From Escherichia phage phiEco32, in the sequence record NC_010324.1: a stretch of 64,000 bases of DNA; one strand, written 5' to 3'. Made by a program: the position numbers and the translations under genes. Under the pieces are notes generated by a model. That model was not told where the DNA came from. It was given only the letters and a program-made list of their open reading frames with translations, and searched no databases. Position 1 is the stretch's first letter. Each line of letters begins with the position of its first letter. Of this stretch, positions 12,507-64,000 are shown piece by piece.

Positions 12507-15500
12507 ATGGCTAACATTAAACCGTGGGAAGAAGCTTCCAAAGCTCCTGCGTATCTGAATGCCTCTCCGGAGCAACAAGCTCAAATGAGAGAACAATATA
12601 AGGCAGCAGGTGGCTCTATTCCTGAGGAACAACCAGTAGCACAACCACAACAAGAAGAACGTGGTGCTATAGGCGAGTTTGCTCAAGGTGTGTCAAATGC
12701 TCTTCAATCTGGTGGTGCAAATATTGCAGCTAGTGCTGCTAAAGGTATTGGTGGTTTAGTTGAGATCGGTGAGAATCTAGCTGGAGCACAGACTAGTTAT
12801 GGTAAGCGTATCCAAGAGAACTCTCAGAACCTTCTGAAAGAACGTATGGATAAGATTGAGGATGGGATTGGCAAAACTGTTGGTCAGTATGCTGGCGTTG
12901 CTGGTGATATTGGTATGACTGTTGCTAACCCATTGGCTGCTGCTGCTATCATCGCAGGTCGTGAGACAGGTCGTGCATATGCAGACCAAACCCCTGAAGA
13001 GGGAGAAGATAAGTCTATTCTAGATGCAGCCTTAGTTGGTGGTGCTAACTATGCGGCCCAGAGAATCCTTCCGGGTGCTGTCGGTACAGCTGAGTCCACA
13101 CTTGGACGTATTGGTCAGAACGTTGCCAGTAACGCAGTGGCTGGTGCTAAAGGTGGTGCTCTTGTTGGTGCTGCTGAAGTTCAGAACAAGTATGGGGATG
13201 ACAATGATCTAGCTAAGACATTGGAAGGTGTTATCGAAGAGGGGGCTATGGGTGCTGCATTTGGTGGCGCAGTTGGTGGGGTTCATGGTTTGATTAGCCG
13301 TCCGGATTCTGTTGTTTTCAAGAATACTCCAGAGTATGCGAAGACTGATATTGCTGCTGATGACGAACTGATTCGTAGTGCTAAGAATGTTGATGAACTG
13401 AAAGAGGCTTACTCTAAAGCTGAAACTGCTAACGCTGCTTCTGCTCTGAACCTTCTCGATGAGAATGGGTTCCGTATTACAGATGCTGTTGCTGTAGATT
13501 CTCCTGCTGCTCAGCGTATTCTTAACACTGACCAAGCTCGTGCTGAGAAAGCTGCTTCTGTTCAGAAAGAACACTCCAACATTCCGGGCCTTAATCCTTT
13601 AGCTTCTCCTGCTAAGACTCGTGGTAAAGCTTTCGCTGATAATGAGCACAACCAGAAACAGGCTGTTGCTATGAAGGATGCGATGGCTGACTATACCAAG
13701 GATAACACTAAAGCTCTTACAGATGTTTTAGATAACCTAGATCGTGAATTAACCTCTCTCCGAGCTTCTGGTGATTTTACTGGTAGTCCGATTGATATTA
13801 AGAATCGCACACAAGCTGACCGTGACTTCATTGATGCTTACAAGACTTTCTACAATGAAGCAAATCGATTCAAAGCTCGTGAAGGTGAAGACTTCAATAA
13901 CTTTGTAGAGAAAGCTGCTGAACTACAGAAGATGGCTGATAATGTTTCTCCAGAGATGAAGAAAGCTATTGGTGGTCTGAAGAAACTGAAGGGTATGCCT
14001 GAAGGTTTTAATCCTATTCAAGATGCTTACACTCTGAACAATACAGCTAAGTTCATGAGCAACCAAGATCGTGGTTGGACTTCCCTGACTGATGATGGGT
14101 TCCGTGAGGCCTCTTCTCCTAGTCTGGTAATGAACACTCTCGGTGCTGCTAAATATGCTCTGAATCGCTTCTCTTCTCAGCGTGCCCGTTCTCAACGTGT
14201 TAAGCAACAAGAGTCTAATAGTGAAGCTATCCGCTCTCTGGCTCGTGGTGATTTGGAAGTTGCTCGTGCTAAATCTACTGCTGATGAAGCTCGTGCTAAA
14301 ATGGAAGAAGAACCAGTTGTTGATGACATTAAATTTAAGACGCAAAATGACGTGGAAACCGAACCGGTTCGGGAGCCTTCTTCTAGTACTGTGACGGAAG
14401 AAAATCTTCCTTCTTCTGCTCCTCAAGAATCTCCTCTTACAGCTCGTGATTTAGTTGCGCAAAGACGTGCTATCCGTCAGGCTGAACAGCGTCGCGCTGA
14501 AGAAGAGGCAGCTGCTGCTCAAGAAGCTCCGGTTGAACAGGCTCCTCAGGCTGAACCTCTCCCTGCTCGTAATCCTCTAGAGGAACGTCGTGCAATGGAA
14601 CAGCAACGTGCTCAAGAAGAGGCTACACAGGCTCCAGAACCAACCGTAGAGGAACCAACAGTCAAAGCTGAGCCATTACCTGCTCGTGCTCCTAAAGCTC
14701 CTAAGGAAGCTGTACAGGACGTTAAACCGGCAAGTGGTGTAGAACGTTTAGCTGCTATGTCTAGTGCTGCTCGTCAGGCTACCAAAGATCGTGCAGAACG
14801 TTTTGCTCGTTCTCTGTACTCTAAGGCTGCTAAAGCTAAAGCCACTGCTGAAAACTTCTTGGCTTATAAAGGTGATCCTAAGGAATTGATGCGTCGTATT
14901 CGTCAGGAAGATAATGCTATCAACACTGAACGTCATGAAGAAATGGCTCGTAACCAGCTGGCTTCTCAGCAAGGTATTGCTACTGCTAAGAACAACACTG
15001 TACGAACTAATTTTGCTGAATGGGTTAAGGAACGTGGTCTGCCAGAAGACATTGCTACTAAGGCATTACGTGCTGAAGAGAAAGGTTTAGGTGGGAACGT
15101 AACTAACTTGGATAGTCTGAAACGTCGTGCTGAAAGGTTGTATCAGAAGCAGCGTGAGGATGAGTTTGATAGATTATATCAACAAGCTCTAGAAGAGAAC
15201 AAAGCTTTCGATAAGAAAGATGCTCCTAAACTGGTTGACCAGAAGAAAGAGCTTCAGTCTGAGATTGATGCTTTGATTGATTCAGAACCTTTACGTCCTG
15301 CTCAGAAAGATGCTATGCGTAAGCTGATGAATGACTTTGTAGATGGGAAGTTTAAATCTTCAGAGAAGGCTGGTAGGGAAGAGGCTTTGGAAGTTGGTCA
15401 GATGAAGGATATTTGGGATGGGTTTATTAACACCTACAACAGAGAAGTGAATGCCTTCAACAAAGCTAACAAGAACTCTCAGTACGAAGCTGCTGCTAAG

Positions 15501-48130: not shown

Positions 48131-48301
48131 ACTTACTCCTGTTGTTTACACTCGTCAATAACCCACTGATAAGTGGATTGCCCAGAAAAGAAACACTGAA
48201 TAAATCCAGATGTTCTCTGCGTTACCAGTGCTAGTGCACAAATCACTACCGCTGCTGCTAGCAGTTTTAAATCTAATTTAGACATATTTCCTCTCGTTGG
48301 A

Positions 48302-48329
48302 TTTAAAAAAGGACTCTCCGAAAAGAGTC
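48302..48329 (-). terminator. rho-independent terminator or attenuator (minus strand)
   Basis: On minus strand gacucu-uuucgg-agaguc followed by cuuuuuuaaa. Confidence 0.45.
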
Positions 48330-48520
48330 AAGCTTTAAATACAAAAAGATATTACCCAATATCTGTGGATAACCTGCTCTTAAAATATCTATCCGACGGA
48401 TGTTCGAGGAGTGTTCCTCTCCCTAGCATCGGCCCCATACGGGAAATATATTAAGATTAGGTTAGTTGAGTCAGAATAACTCACATAGCCCTCCGAAGAA
48501 GGCTATAGGCGTTACTACAA

Positions 48521-48736
48521 CTAAAAATCACTTGATTTTACAAAATCATCACTAAGGATTTCGTCAATTTCTTTGTTAGTCAAATCTTTCCTGAACCAAC
48601 AACAAGGTACATCCACCCATTGACCAGAGTTATTTTCTACAGAGCATCTATTGCCTGTCTTACTCTTGCACTTATAGGTCTTACCTTTGTCTAGACGATA
48701 GTGTATTCTATAAACGATCGACACAAGTGTTATCAT
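48521..48736 (-). CDS. hypothetical small protein
   Basis: 71 aa, basic with Cys pairs; followed by the conserved CTCACATAGCCCTC hairpin. Confidence 0.4.
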   Translation of the reverse strand: MITLVSIVYRIHYRLDKGKTYKCKSKTGNRCSVENNSGQWVDVPCCWFRKDLTNKEIDEILSDDFVKSSDF

Positions 48737-49200
48737 TACTCTACCCTAACTGAAGGACAGTATTTCTCTTTCTTGCTACGATACATCACAACAATCCAGT
48801 TTGAATCACGACGCTCTTTCTTACGTCGTTTCTTTTCAGCACGAGTTTCATATGTGCTAGTTCGGTGGTCACGGTATATTCCACGAAGTTCATAAAATGC
48901 CCAACCACCACCAAACACTACACCAGCCAAAGCAGCCAAAGATAAGGCACCAAGAGCAGGGGCAGTGAACCATGTCCACCAATTGAATGACAAAAAATTC
49001 TCATGTCCAAGGAAAGAGCCACCAATCATGGACAGTGCAGCGTATACAACCCCTAACAGCAGCGTCAGTGCAATGAAGTGCATCACTGTACGCCAGAAGT
49101 ATTCGCAAAAGTTAGTCATATTATCCCAATGAGAGTTGGGTAAACCTGACATGGTTTTGTTGAACTTATGCAACCATCCGTTCTTGTTAATCTTGATCAT
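48736..49200 (-). CDS. membrane protein (two TMDs)
   Basis: 154 aa; hydrophobic segments FIALTLLLGVVYAALSMIGG and FTAPALGALSLAALAGVVFGGGW. Confidence 0.5.
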   Translation of the reverse strand: MIKINKNGWLHKFNKTMSGLPNSHWDNMTNFCEYFWRTVMHFIALTLLLGVVYAALSMIGGSFLGHENFLSFNWWTWFTAPALGALSLAALAGVVFGGGWAFYELRGIYRDHRTSTYETRAEKKRRKKERRDSNWIVVMYRSKKEKYCPSVRVE

Positions 49201-49433
49201 TACTCACCTTTCTTGGCACGATCTTTGGCAGTTTTGCCAGTGCGGATGCGATGAGAAACGTTAACCAGAGTGCCACCATCAACTACGGTAACGCTCTTGT
49301 TTTTAGCCAGATCGAACACAGTTTTCTCCGTGCCACCCAAGCGAATTTGCTTAGGTTCGCTGAAGGTTTGGGTTGATTTAGATTGGAACTGAAACGGTTG
49401 ACGGATTGCATCAATTGCACTTACTTTAGACAT
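49200..49433 (-). CDS. hypothetical protein
   Basis: 77 aa; start overlaps the upstream stop. Confidence 0.4.
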   Translation of the reverse strand: MSKVSAIDAIRQPFQFQSKSTQTFSEPKQIRLGGTEKTVFDLAKNKSVTVVDGGTLVNVSHRIRTGKTAKDRAKKGE

Positions 49434-49664
49434 AGTGGAAATTCCTTAAAAAGTTATGGCTGCGTAGAGGGAATTCCCTACGCAAATTGGGCCGCCTAAA
49501 AAGAGGCGTCATAGTACTAAAAGGAGGAGAGAAGAGGGCTTATTTAGCTACCTTTTTCTGTCCGTTTACGAACCAGATAATTGAACCATCAGGCTGTCGT
49601 TGACCGAAGCCTTTCTGGTTAATCATATCGTCATAAGAATATGCTTTACGTCTCATTTGTTTTC

Positions 49665-49919
49665 CTACGAAGTTAAGATGATTTCAGCCTTAATAAACTT
49701 CTCACCAACAACCATATCACCAGAGATGACACGTAGTTCTCCAGTGCCTAGGTTAACAGCTCCAGCAGGTTGACAACCCCTGCTTTTAGCTGTCATCATA
49801 TAAACCTTTTGATTCTGGCACTCTTGGAGAGTGAACACATCTGACATATTTAGATCTCTGACACGGAGGATTTTTTCCTCTTTGTCTTTAACTTTAATGT
49901 TAATAATGCTCATATGCAC
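49665..49919 (-). CDS. small protein of expanded paralog family (member D)
   Basis: 84 aa; DLNMSDVFTL...GAVNLGTGELRV fits the family pattern. Confidence 0.5.
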   Translation of the reverse strand: MHMSIINIKVKDKEEKILRVRDLNMSDVFTLQECQNQKVYMMTAKSRGCQPAGAVNLGTGELRVISGDMVVGEKFIKAEIILTS

Positions 49920-50164
49920 TACTCCTGAACCACTGACATACGAATCATTTCTACCTGATCGTCAAGACCTTTAACAGATAACATACCTGTGGAAAGGTTT
50001 ACCACAGGAACCCAACCACTGGCTATACGGATGTTACCAGAAGCATTTTCAACCCTCATGTAATATTGAGGAGAAGCACTTCCGTTCTGAACCACGAAAG
50101 GATTTCCAGGAATAATTGTTTCCAACTTTACCGTATTATCCTTTTTCTTTGGGATGATTTTCAT
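49919..50164 (-). CDS. small protein of expanded paralog family (member C)
   Basis: 81 aa; MKIIPKKKDNTVKLETIIPGNPFVV...VVNLSTGML. Confidence 0.5.
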   Translation of the reverse strand: MKIIPKKKDNTVKLETIIPGNPFVVQNGSASPQYYMRVENASGNIRIASGWVPVVNLSTGMLSVKGLDDQVEMIRMSVVQE

Positions 50165-50412
50165 TATGTGTTATCCACCAAAAGTTCTGCCGACACAGGA
50201 ATAACTCGACAATAAATAGAAGGTGCTGTTACATTGCCATCAGACAGACGAAGAGTGATTGATCTGTCAGAGTTGATAGTAACGTTTGGACTTGCAGACA
50301 CAGACCCTTTGACATACAGGGTTGCATTGTCAGGAAACTTAAACACAGCTCCGCTGGGAAGTGAGTTGAGATCAACTGTAGTCACTTCTTCTTTCTTGTG
50401 AGTAATCTTCAT
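50164..50412 (-). CDS. small protein of expanded paralog family (member B)
   Basis: Start set to internal ATG (MKITHKKEE...), 1 nt after the upstream stop; DLNSLPSGAVFKF. Confidence 0.5.
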   Translation of the reverse strand: MKITHKKEEVTTVDLNSLPSGAVFKFPDNATLYVKGSVSASPNVTINSDRSITLRLSDGNVTAPSIYCRVIPVSAELLVDNT

Positions 50413-50413
50413 A

Positions 50414-50644
50414 TTATTTACCCTGAATAATAAGTTTAGATTCGAACAGATCAACAGTATTGGACAAAGGGACCGGAAAGAAAATATCTTTAGGGTTCCG
50501 AACACACATTGCAGAATGTTCCCCTGTTTTTATCCAGAATTTAGGGACTACATCGTCACCAGTAAAACGGAAAACATCTCCATTCTCCAAGTCAGAGAAA
50601 GTCTTGGAGGGTGTTTTGCTTTTTGGTACTAGCTCAAAATTCAT
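50414..50644 (-). CDS. small protein of expanded paralog family (member A)
   Basis: 76 aa; FSDLENGDVFRF...FWIKTGEHSAMCVRNP. Confidence 0.5.
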   Translation of the reverse strand: MNFELVPKSKTPSKTFSDLENGDVFRFTGDDVVPKFWIKTGEHSAMCVRNPKDIFFPVPLSNTVDLFESKLIIQGK

Positions 50645-50652
50645 CTTGATTC

Positions 50653-50976
50653 CTATTTAAGTTTGAGGCTAATGTTAAGGTGCATACATGCCCTGTTCTG
50701 TACAGCAGCATAACTCCTACCGAGCATGTCAGCCATTCTCTGAATAGACATGAACCCAGCATTACGGATAAGGAACTGATCGTCTTCTTCAGACCAGACT
50801 CTTCTTTGACGCTTACGTTTTATCTGGAAATTAGAACAGGCTCTGCTAATAACTGATTTATTAGTTTCCATGATATCTGCAACTGTTTCTAAAGAGTAGT
50901 TATTAACCAAGACTTCTAGTTGTTTTACTACTTCAGGAGTCCATCTGATTCTTTCAGGTTTCATTTTACCACCCAT
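50653..50976 (-). CDS. DNA-binding protein with two helix-turn-helix (Myb/SANT-like) repeats
   Basis: 107 aa; two repeats W-x-EE...NR (WTPEVVKQLEVLVNNYSLETVADIMETNKSVISRA; WSEEDDQFLIRNAGFMSIQRMADMLGRSYAAVQNRA). Confidence 0.45.
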   Translation of the reverse strand: MGGKMKPERIRWTPEVVKQLEVLVNNYSLETVADIMETNKSVISRACSNFQIKRKRQRRVWSEEDDQFLIRNAGFMSIQRMADMLGRSYAAVQNRACMHLNISLKLK

Positions 50977-51187
50977 GCCGACTTTTGACTAATACACCAT
51001 CAATTATTAGATAGTGTGAATGGTTAATCATATCCGAAGACAAGTCTCCGTGAGAGCTATTCCATTTAAGGAAATTCATATTTTCCCAATCAGTGTAGTG
51101 CTTTTTGGCTTCTTCCTCTACCTGACTAAGAGTTACCCTTCTGAAAGGATAAGGACTATGCTTTATAAGCGTCTCACATTTTGTCAT
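50966..51187 (-). CDS. hypothetical protein
   Basis: 73 aa; GGAGG RBS; preceded by a 290-bp intergenic region with a sigma70-like TTGAAT-17-TTATAT arrangement on the minus strand. Confidence 0.4.
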   Translation of the reverse strand: MTKCETLIKHSPYPFRRVTLSQVEEEAKKHYTDWENMNFLKWNSSHGDLSSDMINHSHYLIIDGVLVKSRHGW

Positions 51188-51604
51188 ACACCCTCCAATT
51201 AAACATTTATATAAGACTTGCTTAGATAAAGATTCAATAAATAGGGGGAGGGGGCGAATCCTCCCTTATCCTATTAATTAATATTGCATGTAAGACCTAA
51301 CAATCGGTTGCCTTTGTAGGAATAAGCGTAAAGCCAATCCAGCACTAAACTCCCGCCCCCTTAGTGGGCTGGGTTATTAAAGGGTAACGCCCTTATGGGC
51401 TAGTTACATGAATGTTAGTTTGATAGGAGATCTGAAGTCCTATCTCAAAGGACTCTCGTAAGAATCCTTCACGATATTACTTATTCATCTCTCGTCGGCT
51501 ATCTCTCCAAGCCAGCCAAGTGTAGGTTTTCAATTCTTCAAAGTCTTCTGGAGAGAATAGATAATCTTTGAAGGTGTTTCCAAACCACTCTAAAAATTCT
51601 TTAG

Positions 51605-51865
51605 TCATGAGTCCTCATACTTTTTGTTAGGAAGGATGAAATCCCAAAGAGCAGCCCATGCTACGAGTGCTATAAACAGTACAGCAATAATAGGCCACAA
51701 GAAAACCATAGCTGCTATCTTTCCTAGGTCTGGCTCACCATCCCAACCTCGGAAACACTGATTACCTTTAACATCTATAATCTTAATCAGAACACCTGAT
51801 ACTACTGATCCTATCAGATAGGCTATTAACACACTAACAAGACTGGTCACAAGGTTGATCTCCAC
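51605..51865 (-). CDS. small membrane protein (two TMDs)
   Basis: 86 aa; GTG start; LVSVLIAYLIGSVVSGVLI and AAMVFLWPIIAVLFIALVAWAALW. Confidence 0.4.
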   Translation of the reverse strand: MEINLVTSLVSVLIAYLIGSVVSGVLIKIIDVKGNQCFRGWDGEPDLGKIAAMVFLWPIIAVLFIALVAWAALWDFILPNKKYEDS

Positions 51866-52016
51866 ATGTTTTACAGATCACTGGTGAGTAACTACAGGCA
51901 GGATATACTGACACCCCATCAAACGTCTCACATCCACAATCAGGACATGTACCGTTGGATTCCATGTCATAATCGTCATCTATTTCACCACCGCCAAAAC
52001 AACTCATACAGGCTCC

Positions 52017-52238
52017 TTAGTAAACTAAACCTGTAGCCTTTGCATCAGGCTGAGGGACTACTTTTGCGCTAGGGCGATAACCATCCACTGAACCGTTCCA
52101 AAGATTGACACAGGTGATATATCCATCGTTTATGATGTCTGTTTTAATCCAGAAGTGTTTATCATGACCAAAAACACTTCCGTTTGGAAGGCTGGACAGC
52201 TCAACGGTTTTAAGTGACTGCTTAGAGTCTAGTTTCAT
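52017..52238 (-). CDS. small protein of expanded paralog family (member E)
   Basis: Start set to internal ATG (MKLDSKQS...); LSSLPNGSVFGHDKHFWIKTDIINDGYITCVNLWNGSV. Confidence 0.5.
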   Translation of the reverse strand: MKLDSKQSLKTVELSSLPNGSVFGHDKHFWIKTDIINDGYITCVNLWNGSVDGYRPSAKVVPQPDAKATGLVY

Positions 52239-52245
52239 AATAACC

Positions 52246-52494
52246 TCAATTATCGTAGCATGTATCCCAATACATGTAGTTAACGTATGTTCTCGGTTTG
52301 AGTCCATATATAATGAAGTGTGTCTTCTTAATCCTTTCCTTCAGCGTGTAATAAAGGCCATCACTGAAGTTACCAATCTTTACTTGGAAGCGTAAGGAGC
52401 GAGCATCCATTCGAAGCATAGAGATTAGCTGTACCCTACTACCTCCAGCCATCTCTTCAAGAAGCTTCTTTGTATTCCAATAATGAGCTGTCAT
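52246..52494 (-). CDS. hypothetical protein
   Basis: 82 aa; 1 nt after the upstream stop. Confidence 0.4.
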   Translation of the reverse strand: MTAHYWNTKKLLEEMAGGSRVQLISMLRMDARSLRFQVKIGNFSDGLYYTLKERIKKTHFIIYGLKPRTYVNYMYWDTCYDN

Positions 52495-52495
52495 A

Positions 52496-52777
52496 TTACC
52501 ACTCCTTACCGGTTGTTGTTACAGAACCACCACACCACTGTGCATCTGACAAGGTTTTAGTTTCCTCATCTACTGCTGCACCATTCAGGCATGAGATACC
52601 ACTATAACGCATATCAATTTCACCAGAAGGAACCTTCTCACCCTTATGCCAGCGAGAAACACAAACACCTTCCACTGCTACTGCACACCATCCATCAGGA
52701 CGGCTCTGTACGCAGCCTGTAAGGGCCACACAGACAAGGAAGATACAGATTAAGGATATTACACCACCCCAACTCAT
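52496..52777 (-). CDS. lipoprotein (signal peptide plus lipobox LTGC)
   Basis: 93 aa; MSWGGVISLICIFLVCVALTGC; mature part Cys-rich; first gene downstream of the tRNA. Confidence 0.55.
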   Translation of the reverse strand: MSWGGVISLICIFLVCVALTGCVQSRPDGWCAVAVEGVCVSRWHKGEKVPSGEIDMRYSGISCLNGAAVDEETKTLSDAQWCGGSVTTTGKEW

Positions 52778-52796
52778 ATCTACCTCCTATTTGATT

Positions 52797-52873
52797 TGGC
52801 GCACCCTACAGGATTCGAACCTGTAACCGACGGATTAGAAATCCGATGTTCTGTCCAATTGAACTAAGGGCGC
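52797..52873 (-). tRNA. tRNA-Arg (anticodon UCU), CCA encoded
   Basis: Minus-strand cloverleaf: acceptor GCGCCCT/AGGGTGC (one G-U), D-arm GTTC-AATTGGACA-GAAC, anticodon loop UUUCUAA, T-arm ACAGG-TTCGAAT-CCTGT, discriminator G then CCA. Acceptor and T-arm match E. coli argU from memory. Confidence 0.85.
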
Positions 52874-53053
52874 AGGATTATTTAGATCATGTCTCGCTTG
52901 GTGATATGACCACATGTTTTACACTGCACGATGTAGCGTAAACCTTTATGTTTCGTACCACCATAATCATCAGTGATCTTTAGTGTATACTTTTCAAGGA
53001 TTGTCCAATCATGCAGATGCAGTAGACGTTTAAACCACTTGAACATATTAACC

Positions 53054-53305
53054 TCAAGCACAAGCAGGGAGAGTGATGATTTTATACTTGCCTTCAAACT
53101 CTCCAAATAAACCCAAGAATGTAGGACTGTAAGTACCAGTGCAAACAAACTCATCAAATAATTCGTTATAGCTAGGCTTAATCTTCCAAGCCCATACATA
53201 ACCCATCTTGTCAATTGCAATGTAACGAGTGTTCAGAGGAACAGTCATCATTACACCGTCAACTTCAATCACTTTAGTGATTGGTGCAGCTTGGAAGTTT
53301 TTCAT
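53054..53305 (-). CDS. hypothetical protein
   Basis: Start set to internal ATG (MKNFQAAPI...) just after the upstream stop. Confidence 0.4.
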   Translation of the reverse strand: MKNFQAAPITKVIEVDGVMMTVPLNTRYIAIDKMGYVWAWKIKPSYNELFDEFVCTGTYSPTFLGLFGEFEGKYKIITLPACA

Positions 53306-53526
53306 CCTACTCTCCTGACGTTTAGGGTAGCTTGGTAAAATTTGACAGGACAACTTCTGTCAAACGTAAATCTTGTTTCAGGGTTATTTATACAGATAGC
53401 ATGTCTGTGCATAACCTTCATATATAAAGGAGGTTTTGTATCCCCATCTATCTCTAGAGAGAACACATCACCATTACGTAGACTACCAAAAGTATTATCC
53501 CTAGGCTCAGAGCGAACGATAATCAT
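53302..53526 (-). CDS. small protein of expanded paralog family (member F)
   Basis: 74 aa; FGSLRNGDVFSL...AICINNPETRF. Confidence 0.5.
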   Translation of the reverse strand: MIIVRSEPRDNTFGSLRNGDVFSLEIDGDTKPPLYMKVMHRHAICINNPETRFTFDRSCPVKFYQATLNVRRVG

Positions 53527-53699
53527 ACTTTACCTTTGATAAAAATATCATTACCACAGACACAGCATGAACGAACAACAGTAGCGCCACGCTGAACGAT
53601 ACGAACCTCTTCCTTAACCAGATTAATACGAGCACCACAGCAAGGAGAGTTGACATAAGAGTAACCAGCTTGTGTATTCTTGATTGTTTGCTTAGACAT
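53523..53699 (-). CDS. small zinc-ribbon-like protein (58 aa, below ORF-track threshold)
   Basis: Hand-called: MSKQTIKNTQAGYSYVNSPCCGARINLVKEEVRIVQRGATVVRSCCVCGNDIFIKGKV; AGAGGAA RBS; stop overlaps the next start (ATGA). Confidence 0.4.
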   Translation of the reverse strand: MSKQTIKNTQAGYSYVNSPCCGARINLVKEEVRIVQRGATVVRSCCVCGNDIFIKGKV

Positions 53700-53744
53700 T
53701 TGAGCTTCCTCTTGTTAGTTTAAGTAAGAGCTGTCCCTTAATTA

Positions 53745-53772
53745 AAACAACAAAGGCCGCCCGAAGGCAGCC
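53745..53772 (-). terminator. rho-independent terminator (minus strand)
   Basis: On minus strand ggcugcc-uucg-ggcggcc followed by uuuguuguuuu; directly after the stop of 53778..54029. Confidence 0.5.
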
Positions 53773-53777
53773 TCTCT

Positions 53778-54029
53778 TTATTGACTAACACCACGAATCA
53801 GATGATTCTGTAGCATCTCGTCTTCTGCATTATACAGGAACGCAAACATCAACTCCTTAGCCACATCTCTTGAGCAATTAAGACACTTAGAGATTTGCGT
53901 TAGTTGCATGTTGCGTTCTGTGTGTTCCATCAAGGCAATGCGAATGATCTCTCGCATACCTATCACATGGGTTGTCTTAACCGGCATAGGTCCAATTGCC
54001 TTGCTTATTACGGATGGCTGACATTGCAT
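53778..54029 (-). CDS. hypothetical protein (possible HTH)
   Basis: 83 aa; true start probably an internal Met (MPVKTT or MREII). Confidence 0.35.
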   Translation of the reverse strand: MQCQPSVISKAIGPMPVKTTHVIGMREIIRIALMEHTERNMQLTQISKCLNCSRDVAKELMFAFLYNAEDEMLQNHLIRGVSQ

Positions 54030-54475
54030 GAATCCAGAAGCCTTCCAGTTTCAGAGCACCATTAGCTACTGCATCCATACGTTCAGGGCGGTTCATACGT
54101 TTGGTTGATACTTTCATACATATCTCTCTTTGTTAGTGGAGGCATTATTGCCAGTTGATATAAGGGATAGCCCTAGTCAGTAGACTAATCCTGACCGCGT
54201 ACTCATCGCCGACCTTCTCTGCCTAAGAGTTCAGGTTCTAGAGCTATCTCTTATTCCAACTGGTGAAGACCTCCTACCCCTAGGAGATCTCCCAAATCCC
54301 AAACCAATACGTACCCCTACGTAGTGGAAAGTCTACCGAAATTGCACAGGTTTTAGTCTAACACCGGATGTTTGAGCAAGCTCTCCCTAGCGGTGCGGCA
54401 TATGCCTGATTGATATAGTTAACGAGGAACACCCTCACATAGCCCTCTGATAAACACAAGGGCTATAAGTCGGTG

Positions 54476-54694
54476 TTACTTTTGGGATAAACACAGATCG
54501 GGACGTGGCATAACAGTGGTTGATAGACCGAAGACTTCAACAGAACCACTATTCAGGTTAGCGGCCTTGCACAAACCATCAGGAGTTTTATCTTCTAACA
54601 TTAGCCAGAAACGTCTATCGTAGGAGAAAACATCACCACTTTTAACATCTTCTGCATTTGCATATTTAGGATAATCAACTACTTTAATTTCCAT
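54476..54694 (-). CDS. small protein of expanded paralog family (member G)
   Basis: 72 aa; AEDVKSGDVFSYDRRFWLML...CKAANLNSGSVEVF. Confidence 0.5.
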   Translation of the reverse strand: MEIKVVDYPKYANAEDVKSGDVFSYDRRFWLMLEDKTPDGLCKAANLNSGSVEVFGLSTTVMPRPDLCLSQK

Positions 54695-54952
54695 CTACTT
54701 ACCTTTATTAGTAATTACTACATCAGGGATAAGGATTACAGGAAGACTTGAATCAAGCTTCATAACCTGATTAGTTCTTAAACCAAGTACAACTGTTCCA
54801 GAATCTCTCCTGTCTGATTCTGTTACGTGTGGAGTGAATAAACTAACAACTAAATAGTGATCGACACGCGTAGCTTTAACTTGGAACACATCCCCAAGCT
54901 TTAAATCACCCACTGTGAGATCTGCGTCTTTCATCTCAAGATCAATCTTCAT
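54695..54952 (-). CDS. small protein of expanded paralog family (member H)
   Basis: 85 aa; VGDLKLGDVFQV...VVLGLRTNQVM. Confidence 0.5.
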   Translation of the reverse strand: MKIDLEMKDADLTVGDLKLGDVFQVKATRVDHYLVVSLFTPHVTESDRRDSGTVVLGLRTNQVMKLDSSLPVILIPDVVITNKGK

Positions 54953-55202
54953 CTTTAGCCCCTATATTGGTTATTTGGAGATCACTGCGTACTTGGCAGA
55001 CTTCATCCCGTTTAAAAGGCATAAGCTTTCCAGTTACCACATCAACACAGTTCACATAGTTATCTGCGTATAGTGTGTCGGTTCTAATATAAAGAGAGTC
55101 TTTACGCTCAAATAGAACGCCCGGCTTCATGTTGTTTAAGCGAAGCATTGTATGGTCGGATTTAATATTAACTTTCACTGTTAATCCCCTGCTGTTTAGC
55201 AA
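54942..55202 (-). CDS. small protein of expanded paralog family (member I)
   Basis: 86 aa; NMKPGVLFERKDSLYIRT...CVDVVTGKLM. Confidence 0.45.
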   Translation of the reverse strand: MLNSRGLTVKVNIKSDHTMLRLNNMKPGVLFERKDSLYIRTDTLYADNYVNCVDVVTGKLMPFKRDEVCQVRSDLQITNIGAKDED

Positions 55203-55464
55203 TAGCTACTCGCAAGTCTTCATTAGCACGAGCAAGGCGCAACACTTCGTGGTTGAGGTTCTGAAGACGTTTGTTTCTGTCCTCTACTTGCATAATAAGA
55301 TCGTTGAGTGTTACTTTAACTTTCTCATTATACATCTCATCCACTCGGACTAGAGATCTATACATTCTCTCCCAGCTTGCTGCTTTGTTTCTGAGAACAA
55401 TAAACCCTATAACGCTGATAGTTAAACAGAGTACAAAAAGGAATTTATATACTTCTAAAGTCAT
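55168..55464 (-). CDS. membrane-anchored coiled-coil protein
   Basis: 98 aa; N-terminal TMD FLFVLCLTISVIGFIVL then helical charged region. Confidence 0.4.
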   Translation of the reverse strand: MTLEVYKFLFVLCLTISVIGFIVLRNKAASWERMYRSLVRVDEMYNEKVKVTLNDLIMQVEDRNKRLQNLNHEVLRLARANEDLRVAIAKQQGINSES

Positions 55465-55663
55465 ATTATTTACCCTTTATCAGAGATTAAAAGTAATATT
55501 ATTTAAGTAAGTTAAATTTAGTAAACTTATTTTCTAAGAAATTTTCAAAGGGTCTATATACAGAGCATTACCCATAGTCCCAGAATACTACCATCTTTTT
55601 CAATAAATTTACTAAGTGGTTGGTTTATAAAGGAATTTAGTTTGTCAAATCTGGCACTAGTGA

Positions 55664-56053
55664 TTATTCCCTAGAGCTATTATCGAACACTAAATCACCA
55701 CAATACATAGGATTGGCATACCATTTTGGCACCCCTTCGCTCTTACTCTGAAAGTAAGTCCCACTGTACAGCGGAACGTAATTCTTCTTAAGGGCACGTT
55801 TAGCAAGTCGCTCGCTTTCTCCAATGGCTTGCTTAGTCATCGGATTTTTATCACGAATCAGCTTTACATAACGTTTATAAGGTTTCTCCTGTTTTAATAG
55901 TACCGGAATCCACTCAAACTGGTTCTTTTGTCTTATCACCTGTTCAGCGGTCAGTTTTCGTTGGGCCATTCTATTTATCACGGTATCCGCAACTAAAGCC
56001 TTACATGCGGTTGGCTGATTCCCTGCCTCATAATAAATAGTCAATGTCAACAT
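55664..56053 (-). CDS. cell-wall hydrolase, SleB/CwlJ-like (Hydrolase_2-type)
   Basis: 129 aa; TIYYEAGNQPTACKALVADTVINRM parallels the SleB signature IYGEARGE...VA-VI-NR. Confidence 0.45.
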   Translation of the reverse strand: MLTLTIYYEAGNQPTACKALVADTVINRMAQRKLTAEQVIRQKNQFEWIPVLLKQEKPYKRYVKLIRDKNPMTKQAIGESERLAKRALKKNYVPLYSGTYFQSKSEGVPKWYANPMYCGDLVFDNSSRE

Positions 56054-56125
56054 TAGCTGTGCCGTTGTTATCAGAACTTGCTACCTCCTGTTTTGTTGTT
56101 TCAATAAACACCCTCGAAAAGATGC

Positions 56126-56155
56126 TTATAGAAACACCCCTCCCTTTCGGGAGAG
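56126..56155 (-). terminator. terminator hairpin downstream of the YadA-like gene (minus strand)
   Basis: On minus strand ccucuccc-gaaa-gggagggg (one G-U) followed by uguuucua...cuuuuc. Confidence 0.4.
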
Positions 56156-56163
56156 GCACTATC

Positions 56164-56844
56164 TTACCACTCGTAACTTACACCAGCGCCCAGAACAGCG
56201 TCACTCTCTGAAGTCATTGCCACTGATGCTTTAGTTACTACGTTTTCATTGAAACGAGCACTAACACCAATAGCAAGAGCAGATTCACCATCGTAAGCAC
56301 CTACCCCAGCACCAACAGAGAAAGCAGATCCTTGACTTACTTGCGGGATGTTAGCCATTGCAGCCACGCCAGAAATACCAGCAGAGGCATGATCACGGTT
56401 ACGGTCTACTTGTTTTTGCAAAGAAGCAAAACGTTTGTTGGTGGATTGTTCCAGAGCTTTGATGGATTTGGCGTTAGCATTAACGGCAGACATATCTGCA
56501 TCTTTACCATTTTTACCATTTAATCCGTCAACGCCATTCAAACCTGCTGCACCAGTTAGGCCAGTTTCGCCTTTCTTACCATCTGCACCAGAATCGCCTT
56601 TTTCACCTTGAGCGCCATCTTTACCATCAATGCCGTCTTTACCATCAATGCCATTAGCGCCAGTGTCGCCTTTCTCTCCCTGATCACCTTTTTCACCTTT
56701 AAACCAATCTCCGATACCGCAACCATTGGTAGATTGACCTACACCACAACCTCCATTGCCATTGCCATTGTTTCCACTTTTAGCAAAAACAGGCGATGCC
56801 ATTACGGACAGAGCTAGGATTGATGATAATACAATTGCTTTCAT
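56164..56844 (-). CDS. YadA-like trimeric autotransporter-type protein with collagen-like Gly-X-Y repeats
   Basis: Start set to internal ATG (MKAIVLSSILALSVMASPVFA signal peptide). About 20 Gly-X-Y triplets (GEKGDQGEKGDTGANGIDGKDGIDGKDG...). C-terminal ~70 aa (AGISGVAAMANIPQ...AIGVSARFNENVVTKASVAMTSESDAVLGAGVSYEW) matches a YadA-type anchor. Confidence 0.6.
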   Translation of the reverse strand: MKAIVLSSILALSVMASPVFAKSGNNGNGNGGCGVGQSTNGCGIGDWFKGEKGDQGEKGDTGANGIDGKDGIDGKDGAQGEKGDSGADGKKGETGLTGAAGLNGVDGLNGKNGKDADMSAVNANAKSIKALEQSTNKRFASLQKQVDRNRDHASAGISGVAAMANIPQVSQGSAFSVGAGVGAYDGESALAIGVSARFNENVVTKASVAMTSESDAVLGAGVSYEW

Positions 56845-57062
56845 TTCATAGATTCCTATACAGTAGACATAAAAAAGCCCCAGCCGTAGCCGGGGCAAAC
56901 CTGAAAGCAACACATGACCGTTGCTATAAACACACTCGCAAATGCACTTACAGCAACGCAAAAAAGCCGCTCAAAGGCGGCTATGCGGAAGCTTCAAATG
57001 GGGAGAGGGCACGACGCTACAGAAAGAGCGTCACAGTACTAAAAGAGGGGGCTATATTCCTA

Positions 57063-58230: not shown

Positions 58231-58332
58231 CTTTGATTAAATTCTTTGATTAATGCACTGAATCAATGCACTGATAAAAGAAAAGGCGCTACCCGTTAAG
58301 ATAGCGCCTTATGTTTATTCAAATTGTCTTAC

Positions 58333-60052: not shown

Positions 60053-60720
60053 ATTATTAAAGAGCGGTAAATCTATCAGTGTGCTTTCTCACACTATGCA
60101 ACTGTTAGCCGTTGTTACGCTTTCCTTAAGCGGTGATTTGCTTAAGTGTGCTCATTATGAATCATGCTGTTTTAGCTGTCAACCACTTTTTTAATCTTTT
60201 TCGTCGTTCCCGCTGTTGGGAGGATATATCAATCAGCTATGTTTGATTGAAGATTAAGCGGCAAGGCTTAAACTTATGATTCATATTTTTAAAGAGCGGT
60301 TACTACATTCACAGCTTAACACATCGTGTTAGCTTGTCAAACTCTTTTTTATCATCTTCTTTTATTCCGTTCCCTTATCTCGCTTGAATCTATGCGAAAA
60401 GGCAAGATGATAAGTCTGATTTGTCTTTTAGGAATCTAGTGCACTTTCAAGCATCGACCATTTGAAAGTATCGAACAAATGAGGCTTATTTTGTTGCTCA
60501 TCGTCCGCCTGTTTCACGTATGAATCAGGAATCAATTCTAGCGGTCAACTAAGCGCCTTATAGTAATGACGTTACCGCCACCTGTAAGACAAATCATATT
60601 TTTAAAGAGCGGGATGTTTTGATTCATCGCTGAATGAGTGCTCATTATGTATCAGGCTTTTTCCGGTGTCAATACTCTTTTTTAAGTATTTTCACTTTCT
60701 AGCCTGATTTTTAAAGAGCG
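60053..60720. repeat. four dispersed copies of a 14-15-nt repeat (A)TTTTTAAAGAGCG(G) within an ORF-free region
   Basis: Copies at about 60053-60067 (variant ttattaaagagcgg), 60285-60299, 60598-60612 and 60707-60720; two are preceded by tgattcat/aaatcat; irregular spacing (232, 313, 109 nt). Confidence 0.5.
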
Positions 60721-61176
60721 TAGCACTTCGTTGTGCGTCCTACCGTCGGTATTCCTACCGCTCCCCGTTGAAGCCTTTTACCGTGATGCTAATCACCTAT
60801 CAGGGAATCTTGTTGCTTGTTGCTTACTGCTTACTACGGGATTCATATTACTATACAGGAAAACCCTGTCAATACCCTTTTTTCAAACTATTTTACATCT
60901 CATTGTTTTATAAAGGAATTTATTTTAGGGATGATAGGAACTACAAAGAAATCAGGATATAGAGGAACGGGTGCGCGTGATACATCACAAGAAACGGCTT
61001 GTAAAGCAATAATAAGCGTCCTAAAACGCATCACAACGAGCTAAAAGGGAGTAAGGTATACAATCACCTTAGAAAAGAAAAAAGCCTCTTAATGAGGCTT
61101 ACAGGAAGGATTTAAAGCATCAGATAGATTATGACCATAGGCATGACCACGGCACAATACAGGAGAAAGATTAAGC

Positions 61177-63262: not shown

Positions 63263-64000
63263 TTGATATTCCTTATGGTTGATGAAAACTACAAACTACA
63301 ATCGCAACTATATAATAAAGGAAAAGGCTGTCAACCATTTATTTTCTAACTTTCTTGCATCCTACTGAAAACTAAAGGAATTTAATTTACTAAACTTTCC
63401 ATATTCAGGGGGATTAACTTACTAACTATTGTTACTTTATAACACTAACGATAACACTACGGGTAGCAGACCAACAGACCAGGACAAACGGGGATACAAC
63501 AACCGCAGGACAGACCACGGGGAAACATGCAAGATAGTGCGGTAATAATATACCACTTAAATAATTAGTTAACTATTAATAGCATTACTCAAACATCAAA
63601 GACCATTCGCTACGCTCATGTACGCTGAAAAAGAAAGTATTAAAAGAAACAATTAAAAGAAATACAATCATCCACTTAATTAATACATATATCATTATTG
63701 CACTCATAATCATTGCTATTGAAACTATTATCAACGTAACTATGGGGGATGTGGGCTATTACTTATGGGTATTATTAACCCTCTTATGGTAGTGCCTGTA
63801 CAGTGCTAGCCTTTCTCTCACTCTTTAAAGGGGAACTAAATAAACGGGTAGCTAATGAATAGGATGGTATACACGGGGAAATAATTACGGGGAGTAGGCA
63901 CGGGGAAAGGTGGAACGTTGAAAGGGAAGGTAAAGGCATTCCCATATGAGCTTTTTTAAATGAGGACTCCCCCTTTTTAGGAAACGCGCGGCGAGCGGCT

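What the first reader, a model, noticed from the sequence alone, without database searches (positions are those of the whole stretch)
48470..57060. Two conserved hairpin-containing elements recur immediately downstream of minus-strand genes
Element 1: CTCACATAGCCCTC-loop-GGCTATA(A/G)G...GTTACT at 48479-48520 and 54427-54480, each directly after a stop codon, with loops UUCUUCGGA and a 12-nt loop. Element 2: hairpin plus GCGTCA(T/C)AGTACTAAAAG(G)AGG at 49493-49527 and 57013-57051, also just after stop codons. Neither has a U-tract. The conservation extends beyond the stems, so these are probably not just terminators; they could be RNA processing sites, stability elements or binding sites.
Basis: seen in the sequence. 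Interest (0 to 1): 0.4.

Follow-up and report, generated by a model that had tools for sequence, protein, structure and literature searches.

The report
Structured RNA modules punctuating phage early-operon
Both repeated motifs are real: the first is the opening stem-loop of an undescribed family of folded non-coding RNA segments lying between early genes of phiEco32-like phages and conserved across two phage families, and the second is a short conserved, mostly unfolded motif whose role is unknown.

Summary
The window is a Kuravirus (phiEco32-like coliphage). The finding lies in its minus-strand early gene cluster. Both repeats are present as described and are far above chance.

Element 1 is not a lone hairpin. 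Its conserved flanks pair with each other (helix P0), giving a ~45-55 nt interrupted stem-loop that contains or closely follows the upstream gene's stop codon. This stem-loop opens a ~130-nt multi-helix RNA domain (P0/P1, P2, P3/P4; in copy a also a long-range P5 and an intrinsic terminator).

This genome has two clear copies (a, b) and a divergent third (c). All sequences of subfamily Gordonclarkvirinae examined have a and b. The distant Salmonella 7-11 group has a and c. Cronobacter phage GAP52 has neither. The helices are 97-100% paired with 7-11 compensatory pairs. G·U pairs and UNCG/CUUG tetraloops point to the sense RNA strand. There is no Rfam match.

Element 2 is a pyrimidine-rich linear motif plus a weak, non-covarying hairpin, restricted to Gordonclarkvirinae.

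The best reading is RNA-level punctuation units of the early polycistronic transcript. The mechanism is unproven.

In passing, four perfect boxA sites follow the early promoters.

The parts
48474..48516 (-). E1a stem-loop. P0 pairs AGUAAC with GUUAUU(C). P1 is CUAUAGCCUUC-UUCG-GAGGGCUAUG with a C(UUCG)G tetraloop.
   Evidence: (z -3.9)
48303..48520 (-). The a-type RNA unit, running from the stop codon to the terminator. P5 5' strand 48451-48464. P2 48433-48443. P3/P4 48393-48432, with invariant UGCUAGGGAGAG...CUCGAACAUCCG. P5 3' strand 48370-48385. Intrinsic terminator 48303-48338.
   Evidence: (R1 143.8 bits)
54427..54480 (-). E1b stem-loop. P0 pairs AACAC with GUGUU. P1 has a 12-nt loop. The stop codon UAA (54476-54478) lies inside the AGUAAC motif.
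   Evidence: (z -3.9)
54352..54480 (-). The b-type core domain: E1b stem-loop, P2 (54397-54406) and P3/P4 (54362-54395), with a G(CUUG)C tetraloop in P4.
   Evidence: (R1 100.9 bits)
51236..51482 (-). The c-type unit, a divergent paralog. It has a stop-codon-containing hairpin 51435-51482 with a U(UACG)A loop, a second hairpin 51422-51444, a P2-like hairpin 51389-51400, and a terminator-like hairpin 51236-51265.
   Evidence: R1 19.6 bits; z -4.3
49489..49538 (-). E2a: a C/U-rich tract, then UAGUACUAUGACGCC, a weak hairpin and GCCC. A separate strong hairpin follows at 49462-49483.
57007..57051 (-). E2b: CCCCCUCUUUUAGUACUGUGACGC, a 10-nt loop, then GCGUCGUGCCC.
56869..56982 (-). Tandem intrinsic terminators immediately downstream of E2b (56959-56982 and 56869-56896).

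Best explanation
E1 and E2 are RNA-level elements of the long early polycistronic transcript of a phiEco32-like phage.

E1 is the opening stem-loop (outer helix P0 plus UNCG-type-capped helix P1) of a family of conserved, folded, non-coding RNA units. These units occupy the three long intergenic gaps of the early region.

Anatomy of the units (shown):
- Each unit starts at, or a few bases after, the stop codon of whatever gene lies upstream.
- Each folds into several helices with invariant unpaired nucleotides.
- Units a and c end at an intrinsic or terminator-like hairpin just before the next gene's ribosome-binding site.

Most likely mechanism (inferred, not shown):
- The built-in stop codon ends translation.
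- The stable stem-loop then forms. It marks and protects the 3' side of the upstream message and the 5' side of the folded RNA.
- Termination at the unit's own terminator, or nuclease trimming, leaves a stable structured RNA of about 200 nt. Its invariant internal loops are recognised by a conserved host or phage factor.
- The units thereby punctuate the operon into blocks.
- Because they are conserved while neighbouring genes are swapped, they also serve as the junctions of gene-cassette mosaicism.

E2 is a different, mostly unstructured pyrimidine-rich motif lying in front of a weak hairpin and, for E2b, in front of terminators. It probably acts as a recognition or processing signal at block boundaries.
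For: Identity of the region:
- The window is a Kuravirus, and the region holds homologs of early genes phi32_90 to phi32_124.

Structure of the E1 domain:
- Across 24 distinct a and b copies, 99.6% of pair cells are paired. Seven pairs show compensatory changes. Covariation is 0.321 against at most 0.074 for slid controls, and 0 of 500 shuffles reach it.
- Across 11 full a units, 97.5% of cells are paired and 11 pairs are compensatory. The structure includes P0 and a long-range helix P5.
- P0 in the b copies shows AACAC/GUGUU in this window against AACAU/AUGUU in ECBP2.
- Many G.U pairs would become A.C mismatches on the other strand.
- The loops C(UUCG)G, U(UACG)A and G(CUUG)C are RNA-type tetraloops.
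- The E1 stem-loops are unusually stable, with z about -3.9 to -4.3.

Distribution:
- Every Kuravirus and Suseptimavirus sequence examined has copies a and b. The 7-11 group has a and c.
- In the small-gene early region, the a unit and the c hairpin are the only DNA similarity between Kuravirus and the 7-11 group, at 72-82%.

Boundaries:
- Homology among phages starts at the stop-codon motif, while at least 5 different upstream gene ends are joined to it.
- Units a and c end in terminator-type hairpins that are conserved, with compensatory changes, across families.
- No sigma-70 promoter lies inside the units. Strong promoters occur only at 60.2-63.3 kb.

Literature:
- CUUCGG-type hairpins in phage intergenic regions stabilise transcripts and stop reverse transcriptase. 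One such hairpin in 7-11 coincides with a primer-extension end (PMC8948821).
Against: - No transcript-end, cleavage or abundance data exist for any of these phages in the material I could read. Pavlova 2012 and Savalia 2008 were not available.
- The units are absent from GAP52, a relative with the same genome layout. They are therefore dispensable or replaceable.
- Copy b has no terminator of its own.
- E2 shows no covariation and no stable fold.
- A weak E2-like copy lies inside a late gene.
- The factor that would read the invariant loops is unknown. Neighbouring proteins gave no informative Pfam or PHROG hits.
- P0 competes with an alternative local hairpin (GAGN...NCUC), which ECBP2 copy a favours.
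Confidence: 0.45

Rival explanations
1. Conditional attenuator, riboswitch-like or factor-dependent. The multi-helix a-type domain would sense a ligand or protein. It would set how much transcription passes the conserved terminator into the downstream conserved enzyme cluster (amidoligases, glutamine amidotransferase, ATP-grasp enzyme, gp79, replication genes).
For: - The architecture is a junction with invariant unpaired nucleotides followed about 45 nt later by an intrinsic terminator.
- The unit sits at the boundary between variable small genes and the conserved enzyme cluster in both Kuravirus and 7-11.
- Genes downstream have no known early promoter of their own (PMC4281155; PMC8948821).
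Against: - Inspection of the alignment showed no conserved alternative (antiterminator) pairing longer than about 4-5 bp.
- Copy b has the same domain but no terminator.
- GAP52 lacks the unit upstream of its endolysin and enzyme cluster.
Confidence: 0.15
2. Simple mRNA processing or stability hairpins. E1 would be an RNase III-type or 3'-end-protecting stem-loop and E2 an RNase E-type site. The rest of the intergenic sequence would have no further function.
For: - E1 is an interrupted helix of about 17-22 bp with an internal loop, located right after stop codons like the T7 early RNase III sites (T7 from general knowledge).
- The UNCG caps resemble T4 intergenic hairpins.
- An A/U-rich single-stranded linker follows the hairpin.
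- A structured element shared with the P22 gene-24 leader lies in the same intergenic region.
Against: - This does not explain the conserved P2, P3/P4 and P5 helices, or the invariant internal-loop sequences retained across two phage families.
- The conserved helix length (about 17 bp) is short for RNase III.
- E2 has no stable structure.
Confidence: 0.15
3. Processive antitermination signals (put-like RNA, or nut-like sites with a phage protein) that let early RNA polymerase read through the five or six intrinsic terminators of the early region.
For: - Early transcripts must cross terminators at 58310, 56982, 56896, 53775 and 48329.
- The 7-11 authors state that an antitermination strategy 'remains to be defined'.
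- Each E element lies upstream of a terminator.
- E1b lies where nutL would lie relative to a P22-like leader element.
Against: - The elements lie 3-12 kb from the promoters, and none precedes the first terminator (58310).
- Perfect boxA sites already sit right after each early promoter in Kuravirus.
- E1 and E2 contain no boxA.
- The small protein downstream of E1b is unrelated to P22 gp24.
- GAP52 lacks the units.
- Similarity to put was not tested.
Confidence: 0.1
4. DNA-level elements: recombination hot spots or cassette boundaries, a protein operator (E2 contains the 8-bp palindrome TAGTACTA), or a single-strand replication signal (hairpins plus a perfect DnaA box in unit a).
For: - Mosaic junctions coincide with the 5' edges of E1 and E2b.
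- E2 keeps palindromic character in different forms: TAGTACTA in Kuravirus and AGTAGTcaACTACT in ECBP2.
- TTATCCACA at 48364-48372 is invariant out to 7-11.
Against: - G.U pairs and UNCG tetraloops are specific to one RNA strand.
- All copies are in the transcription sense.
- There is no cluster of DnaA boxes, and half of the box is the 3' strand of helix P5.
- There is no promoter, as T4 PeSL cassettes would have.
- Mosaic junctions are equally expected next to any conserved functional RNA.
Confidence: 0.1

Closest known systems
CUUCGG / UNCG-capped intergenic hairpins of T4 and other phages (Tuerk et al. 1988, as summarised in PMC8948821)
   Same: These are very stable tetraloop hairpins in intergenic regions of phage polycistronic transcripts. 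E1a P1 is C(UUCG)G, copy c is U(UACG)A, and the 7-11 c copy is U(UUCG)A.
   Different: E1 carries a second outer helix that contains the stop codon. It has conserved stem sequence. It is only the first domain of a larger conserved multi-helix RNA. E1b has a 12-nt loop instead of a tetraloop.
T7 early-region RNase III processing signals (R0.3 to R1.3); lambda sib retroregulator
   Same: These are interrupted stem-loops between or after genes in an early polycistronic mRNA, with conservation among copies beyond simple pairing.
   Different: The conserved E1 helix is about 17 bp, which is short. There is no sequence similarity. Cleavage is untested. E1 is followed by further conserved structure.
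3'UTR-derived small RNAs of enterobacteria (CpxQ, SroC type)
   Same: Units a and c share the terminator of the upstream message, are more conserved than flanking genes, and have a U-rich stretch before the terminator hairpin plus invariant unpaired stretches.
   Different: The units are much larger and more structured (about 200-250 nt, 5-7 helices). They occur in three paralogous copies. Expression as a separate RNA and any target are unknown.
HK022 put RNAs and lambda/P22 nut sites (processive antitermination)
   Same: These are cis RNA elements of phage early transcripts upstream of terminators. The need for antitermination in this phage group is documented.
   Different: E1 and E2 are far from the promoters. 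They contain no boxA or boxB. No N-like protein was found. Genuine boxA sites occur elsewhere, in the promoter-proximal leader.
PeSL mobile regulatory cassettes of T4-type phages (Arbiol et al. 2010; from memory)
   Same: These are repeated stem-loop-containing intergenic sequences that flank variable small early genes and coincide with mosaic junctions.
   Different: PeSLs include an early promoter. E1 and E2 contain none.

Membership tests
Intrinsic (Rho-independent) terminator | G+C-rich hairpin immediately followed by a U-tract | tested here: not met
   The terminator scan lists no site at the E1 or E2 hairpins. Separate canonical terminators lie at 48303-48338, 56959-56982 and 56869-56896.
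Any Rfam family | Covariance-model match | tested here: not met
   At gathering threshold only the tRNA-Arg was found. With E-value up to 10 there was nothing over the elements.
UNCG/CUUCGG stable hairpins | C(UUCG)G or a related UNCG tetraloop closing a stem in an intergenic region | tested here: met
   E1a has CCUUC-UUCG-GAGGG. Copy c has a UACG loop. The 7-11 and pSal c copies have UUCG and UCCG. This is not met for E1b, which has a 12-nt loop, or for E2.
RNase III processing signal (T7 type) | About two turns (roughly 20 bp) of coaxial helix, often with an internal loop | tested here: inconclusive
   P0 plus P1 give about 17 bp conserved, 22 bp in this phage with a phage-specific extension, and 19 bp in copy c.
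RNase III processing signal (T7 type) | Cleavage by RNase III | not testable with these tools
   This needs in vitro cleavage or comparison of rnc hosts.
lambda/P22 nut site | boxA (GYTCTTTAANA) followed by a boxB hairpin, and an N-type protein | tested here: not met
   boxA matches occur only at 60055-60719 and 5412, none in E1 or E2. The 46-aa protein after E1b is unrelated to P22-type gp24. Model R1 does not hit the ST104 nutL region.
HK022 put RNA | Two adjacent stem-loops just downstream of the early promoters, acting on RNA polymerase in cis | tested here: not met
   On location, E1 and E2 lie 3-12 kb downstream of the promoters at 60.2-63.3 kb. Sequence or structure similarity to put was not tested.
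T4-type PeSL cassette | Early sigma-70 promoter plus stem-loop | tested here: not met
   There is no promoter of at least 10/12 match in or next to the elements. The only candidate is 9/12 and is not conserved. Stem-loop and mosaic-junction behaviour are met.
3'UTR-derived sRNA | Shares the intrinsic terminator of the upstream mRNA; conserved beyond the flanking genes | tested here: met
   Units a and c run from a stop codon to a terminator. They are the only DNA similarity to the 7-11 group in this region.
3'UTR-derived sRNA | Accumulates as a discrete RNA and acts on targets | not testable with these tools
   No transcript data were available.
Transcriptional riboswitch/attenuator | Conserved aptamer-like junction followed by a terminator, with a mutually exclusive antiterminator pairing | tested here: inconclusive
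   The junction and terminator are present in unit a. No conserved alternative pairing was seen by inspecting the alignment.

The most novel reading that the evidence does not exclude
The a-type unit (E1 stem-loop, four-helix junction and conserved terminator) is a regulated read-through switch, either ligand-/factor-sensing or put-like. It would gate entry of early transcription into the conserved enzyme and replication cluster. If so, it would be part of the 'undefined' antitermination/temporal-control strategy of phiEco32/7-11-like phages. The b and c paralogs would be related switches or decoys.
Probability: 0.2. Interest if true: 0.8.

Novelty: new variant of a known kind. Interest (0 to 1): 0.55.

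Why it matters
phiEco32-like phages are a model for phage-encoded sigma factors and are used therapeutically (ES17, SU10 relatives). How their very long early transcripts are organised, protected and read through terminators is openly unresolved (PMC8948821).

The E1 units are the only non-coding sequences conserved between two phage families in a region where the protein genes turn over quickly. That implies recognition by a conserved host or phage factor. They give concrete, mutable targets for testing RNA processing, stable phage ncRNAs or regulated read-through. They are also candidates for a new RNA family.

The boxA sites noticed in passing offer a directly testable answer for Rho resistance of the Kuravirus early transcripts.

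Tried and rejected
RNA family and gene searches:
- Rfam at gathering and at lax thresholds found nothing but the tRNA-Arg.
- A tRNA/tmRNA scan found only tRNA-Arg at 52797-52873.

Promoter readings:
- Sigma-70 promoter: E2 has TACTAT but no -35. E1 has only a 9/12 non-conserved match. Rejected.
- phiEco32 gp36 promoter (TAATGTATA; PMC4331800): no match in the elements.
- 7-11 sigma promoter (GTAAtg-16-aCTA; PMC8948821): the spacing does not fit.

Other functional readings:
- Origin or DnaA-box cluster: a single box only.
- Rho-utilisation (rut) site for E2: the E2 regions are not among the most C-rich, G-poor 60-nt windows.
- Coding potential: some records annotate small CDSs over the units. 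However, variation falls in loops and compensatory pairs.
- N-like antiterminator after E1b: no similarity to P22-type gp24.
- Synteny with the 7-11 'Q-like' gp136: no similarity.
- Neighbouring proteins in Pfam and PHROGs: uninformative.

Homolog searches:
- E. coli genomes: only two marginal 37-nt matches.
- IMG/VR and the metagenome scan with the P3/P4 core found only relatives of Kuravirus, Suseptimavirus and the 7-11 group, plus a few chance-like hits.
- GAP52: no unit.

Literature:
- Pavlova 2012 and Savalia 2008 are not held.
- The svsR paper is irrelevant.
- HK022 put comparison was abandoned after fetching the wrong region.

Full report
**What the window is.** Megablast of 48-58 kb finds 108 phage records. 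All are phiEco32-like podophages (ShigP1, EK5, ES17, SU10, Paul and others; genus Kuravirus, subfamily Gordonclarkvirinae). The finding lies in the minus-strand cluster of small early genes, homologs of phi32_90 to phi32_124. According to the literature, these genes are transcribed by host sigma-70 RNA polymerase from a few strong promoters at the far upstream end (PMC4281155; PMC8948821). In this window those promoters are at 63334, 60872, 60672 and 60182 on the minus strand. Clear intrinsic terminators on the same strand lie at 61100, 58310, 56982, 56896, 53775 and 48329.

**The observation.** Both repeats exist as described.
- The 14-mer of Element 1 (E1) occurs exactly twice; every other match needs 3 mismatches and is at chance level.
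- The 18-mer of Element 2 (E2) occurs exactly twice, plus one 2-mismatch copy, against 0.13 expected.
- Both elements are on the sense strand of the genes and directly follow stop codons.

**E1 is much more than a hairpin.** The similarity between the two copies continues for about 90 nt on the minus strand. Both copies lie at the start of unusually long intergenic gaps, 48286-48520 and 54118-54475.

Instances came from annotated phages, IMG/VR and metagenomes. This gave 24 distinct sequences of two paralogs, a and b, from Kuravirus and Suseptimavirus (ECBP2), plus single a-type copies from the Salmonella 7-11 group (family Grimontviridae).

RNAalifold predicts helices P1, P2, P3 and P4. On that alignment:
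- 99.6% of pair cells are standard pairs.
- Seven pairs show changes on both sides.
- The covariation score is 0.321, against at most 0.074 when partners are slid by 1-3 columns. No shuffle out of 500 reaches it.

Folding eleven complete a-type units from stop codon to terminator adds two helices:
- P0 pairs the conserved 5' AGUAAC with GUUAUU just after P1.
- P5 is a long-range helix that pairs the linker (UAACCU, UCUUAA) with UUAAGA...AGGUUA. It encloses P2 and P3/P4 in a junction.

That structure is 97.5% paired, with 11 compensatory pairs. In the b copies P0 is AACAC/GUGUU in this window and AACAU/AUGUU in ECBP2.

The P3/P4 domain contains invariant unpaired nucleotides (UGCUAGGG-GAG...CUC-AACAUCCG). 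It also contains a correlated non-Watson-Crick position, seen by eye: A with G, or C with A.

Several observations identify the sense RNA strand as the folding molecule:
- Several conserved G.U pairs would be A.C on the opposite strand.
- The loops include C(UUCG)G in E1a and G(CUUG)C in P4 of copy b.
- All copies are oriented with transcription.

The E1 stem-loops are unusually stable, with z = -3.9 for both.

A covariance model (R1) recovers two copies in each Gordonclarkvirinae genome and one in 7-11 and pSal-SNUABM-01. It also gives a weak hit in the third long early gap, 51188-51476. That 'c' unit also starts at a stop codon. It has a UACG-capped hairpin (z -4.3), a second hairpin, an AAACUAAC linker and a P2-like hairpin. 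It ends in a terminator-like hairpin. It is conserved in 7-11 and pSal, with compensatory changes both in the first hairpin and in the terminal hairpin.

No Rfam family matches any of this.

**Boundaries and mosaicism.** In copies b and c, the upstream gene's stop codon is the UAA inside the (A)AGUAA motif. In other phages the same position reads UGA (AGUGAC). In copy c the sequence UGAAUAAGUAA carries stops in all three frames.

Homology among phages begins at this motif, while at least five unrelated upstream gene ends are joined to it, for both the a and the b copies. The same holds for E2b. One metagenomic contig joins the phi32_93 homolog directly to E1a. The units are therefore fixed points between which small early genes are exchanged.

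Between Kuravirus and the 7-11 group, the a unit (72-74% identity) and the c hairpin (82%) are the only detectable DNA similarity in the small-gene region. The units are more constrained than the neighbouring genes. They are nevertheless absent from Cronobacter phage GAP52.

**E2.** E2 consists of:
- a C/U-rich, G-poor tract;
- the motif UAGUACURUGACGC(C), with ACUAUGACGC common to all four copies in Kuravirus and ECBP2;
- a 5-6 bp hairpin with a pyrimidine-rich loop.

The stems never vary, so there is no covariation. The folds are not more stable than shuffles.

E2 occurs twice per genome in Gordonclarkvirinae and is absent from the 7-11 group. E2b is followed within 25-110 nt by two canonical terminators. 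A profile search finds one further weak copy inside a late gene, in the sense orientation (14376-14396, E = 0.003).

E2 is not among the most C-rich, G-poor segments, so a rut-site reading has no special support. Its function remains open.

**How it most likely works.** The following is shown:
- E1 belongs to conserved, folded RNA units in the early transcript.
- The units start at stop codons.
- Units a and c end at terminators.
- The units contain no promoter.

The following is inferred. Translation stops at the built-in stop codon. The long stem-loop then forms and delimits or protects the adjacent RNAs. Termination or trimming releases a stable structured RNA, whose invariant loops are read by a conserved factor. 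I put this at 0.45.

Rival explanations:
- A regulated attenuator in front of the conserved enzyme and replication cluster (0.15).
- put- or nut-like antitermination (0.10).
- DNA-level roles (0.10).

Four observations lower the antitermination reading:
- The elements are far from the promoters.
- E1 and E2 contain no boxA.
- GAP52 lacks the units.
- Genuine boxA sites occur elsewhere (next paragraph).

**Noticed on the way.** Four perfect matches to the gamma-proteobacterial boxA consensus GYTCTTTAANA (PMC5725501) lie on the sense strand at 60055-60719. Each is 30-125 nt downstream of an early promoter. The window holds five matches against 0.54 expected. These sites are conserved in Paul and ECBP2 but are not found in the 7-11 leader. 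They would recruit NusB/NusE and make early transcription Rho-resistant. That would be useful for a transcript with 236-360-nt untranslated stretches.

Downstream of E1b lies an ~85-nt element (54166-54248) shared with P22-like phages. In those phages it sits between nutL and the N-type gene 24. Its 11-bp closing stem shows six compensatory pairs.

**Novelty.** I found no description of these units in Rfam or in the papers I could read. The kind of element is familiar: phage intercistronic structured RNA and UNCG hairpins. The specific multi-helix family, its stop-codon-embedded opening helix and its cross-family conservation appear new.

Noticed in passing
window 60055-60065, 60287-60297, 60600-60610, 60709-60719 (minus strand): Four perfect boxA sites (GYTCTTTAANA; CGCUCUUUAA, the same 10-mer as the P22-type nutL boxA). 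Each lies 30-125 nt downstream of a strong early sigma-70 promoter, and by eye a small hairpin often lies just upstream. The window has 5 matches against 0.54 expected. The sites are conserved in Paul and ECBP2 and absent from the 7-11 leader. This suggests Nus-factor (rrn/nut-type) anti-Rho modification of early transcription.
   Followed up: partly
window 54166-54248 (minus strand): An ~85-nt structured element, 79% identical over 67 nt to P22-like phages (ST104 and others). In those phages it lies between nutL and the start of antiterminator gene 24. It has an 11-bp closing stem with 6 compensatory pairs and no Rfam match. It is probably an N-leader-type regulatory or processing structure placed in front of the 46-aa phi32_112 homolog.
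   Followed up: partly
window 48364-48372 (minus strand): A perfect DnaA box (TTATCCACA) inside the a unit, invariant out to phage 7-11. Half of it is the 3' strand of RNA helix P5, while UCCACAG is unpaired and invariant. There is no cluster of boxes nearby.
   Followed up: partly
window 14376-14396 (+ strand): A weak E2-like copy (CUUCUAGUACUGUGACG followed by the hairpin GGAAGA-AAA-UCUUCC) inside the 1488-aa late ORF, in the sense orientation (nhmmer E = 0.003).
   Followed up: no
L006 (phage 7-11) 10516-10562: Another intercistronic hairpin with the same design as E1. The stop codon lies in the outer helix (CAGUAA/UUACUG), which encloses AAGCCUUC-UUUCGA-GAGGGCUU. This is nearly the P1 sequence of the 7-11-group a units.
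   Followed up: no
L006 (phage 7-11) 7560-7750: An unannotated 700-nt gap after gp135 contains tRNA-like 3' halves (GGTTCGAATCC...CCACC and GGTTCGACTCC...GCTCCA). The gap ends with the same ACTAACAAAGAGAGAT ribosome-binding leader that precedes phi32_112 in the window.
   Followed up: no
window 56857-56865 (minus strand): TACTGTATA, one mismatch from the gp36 promoter element TAATGTATA, lies just after the tandem terminators and before the next gene block (lipoprotein/YadA-like gene and cell-wall hydrolase). One-mismatch matches are at chance level overall.
   Followed up: no
L004 (phage Paul) 14042-14137; several other records: Small 'hypothetical protein' CDSs are annotated over the a and b RNA units in some GenBank records. 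These are probably mis-annotations of non-coding RNA.
   Followed up: no
L041 (Cronobacter phage GAP52) 29832-29892 and 36437-36580: GAP52 has the same gene order but lacks the a and c units. A simple hairpin (GCCCAC...GUGGGC) precedes its endolysin instead.
   Followed up: partly
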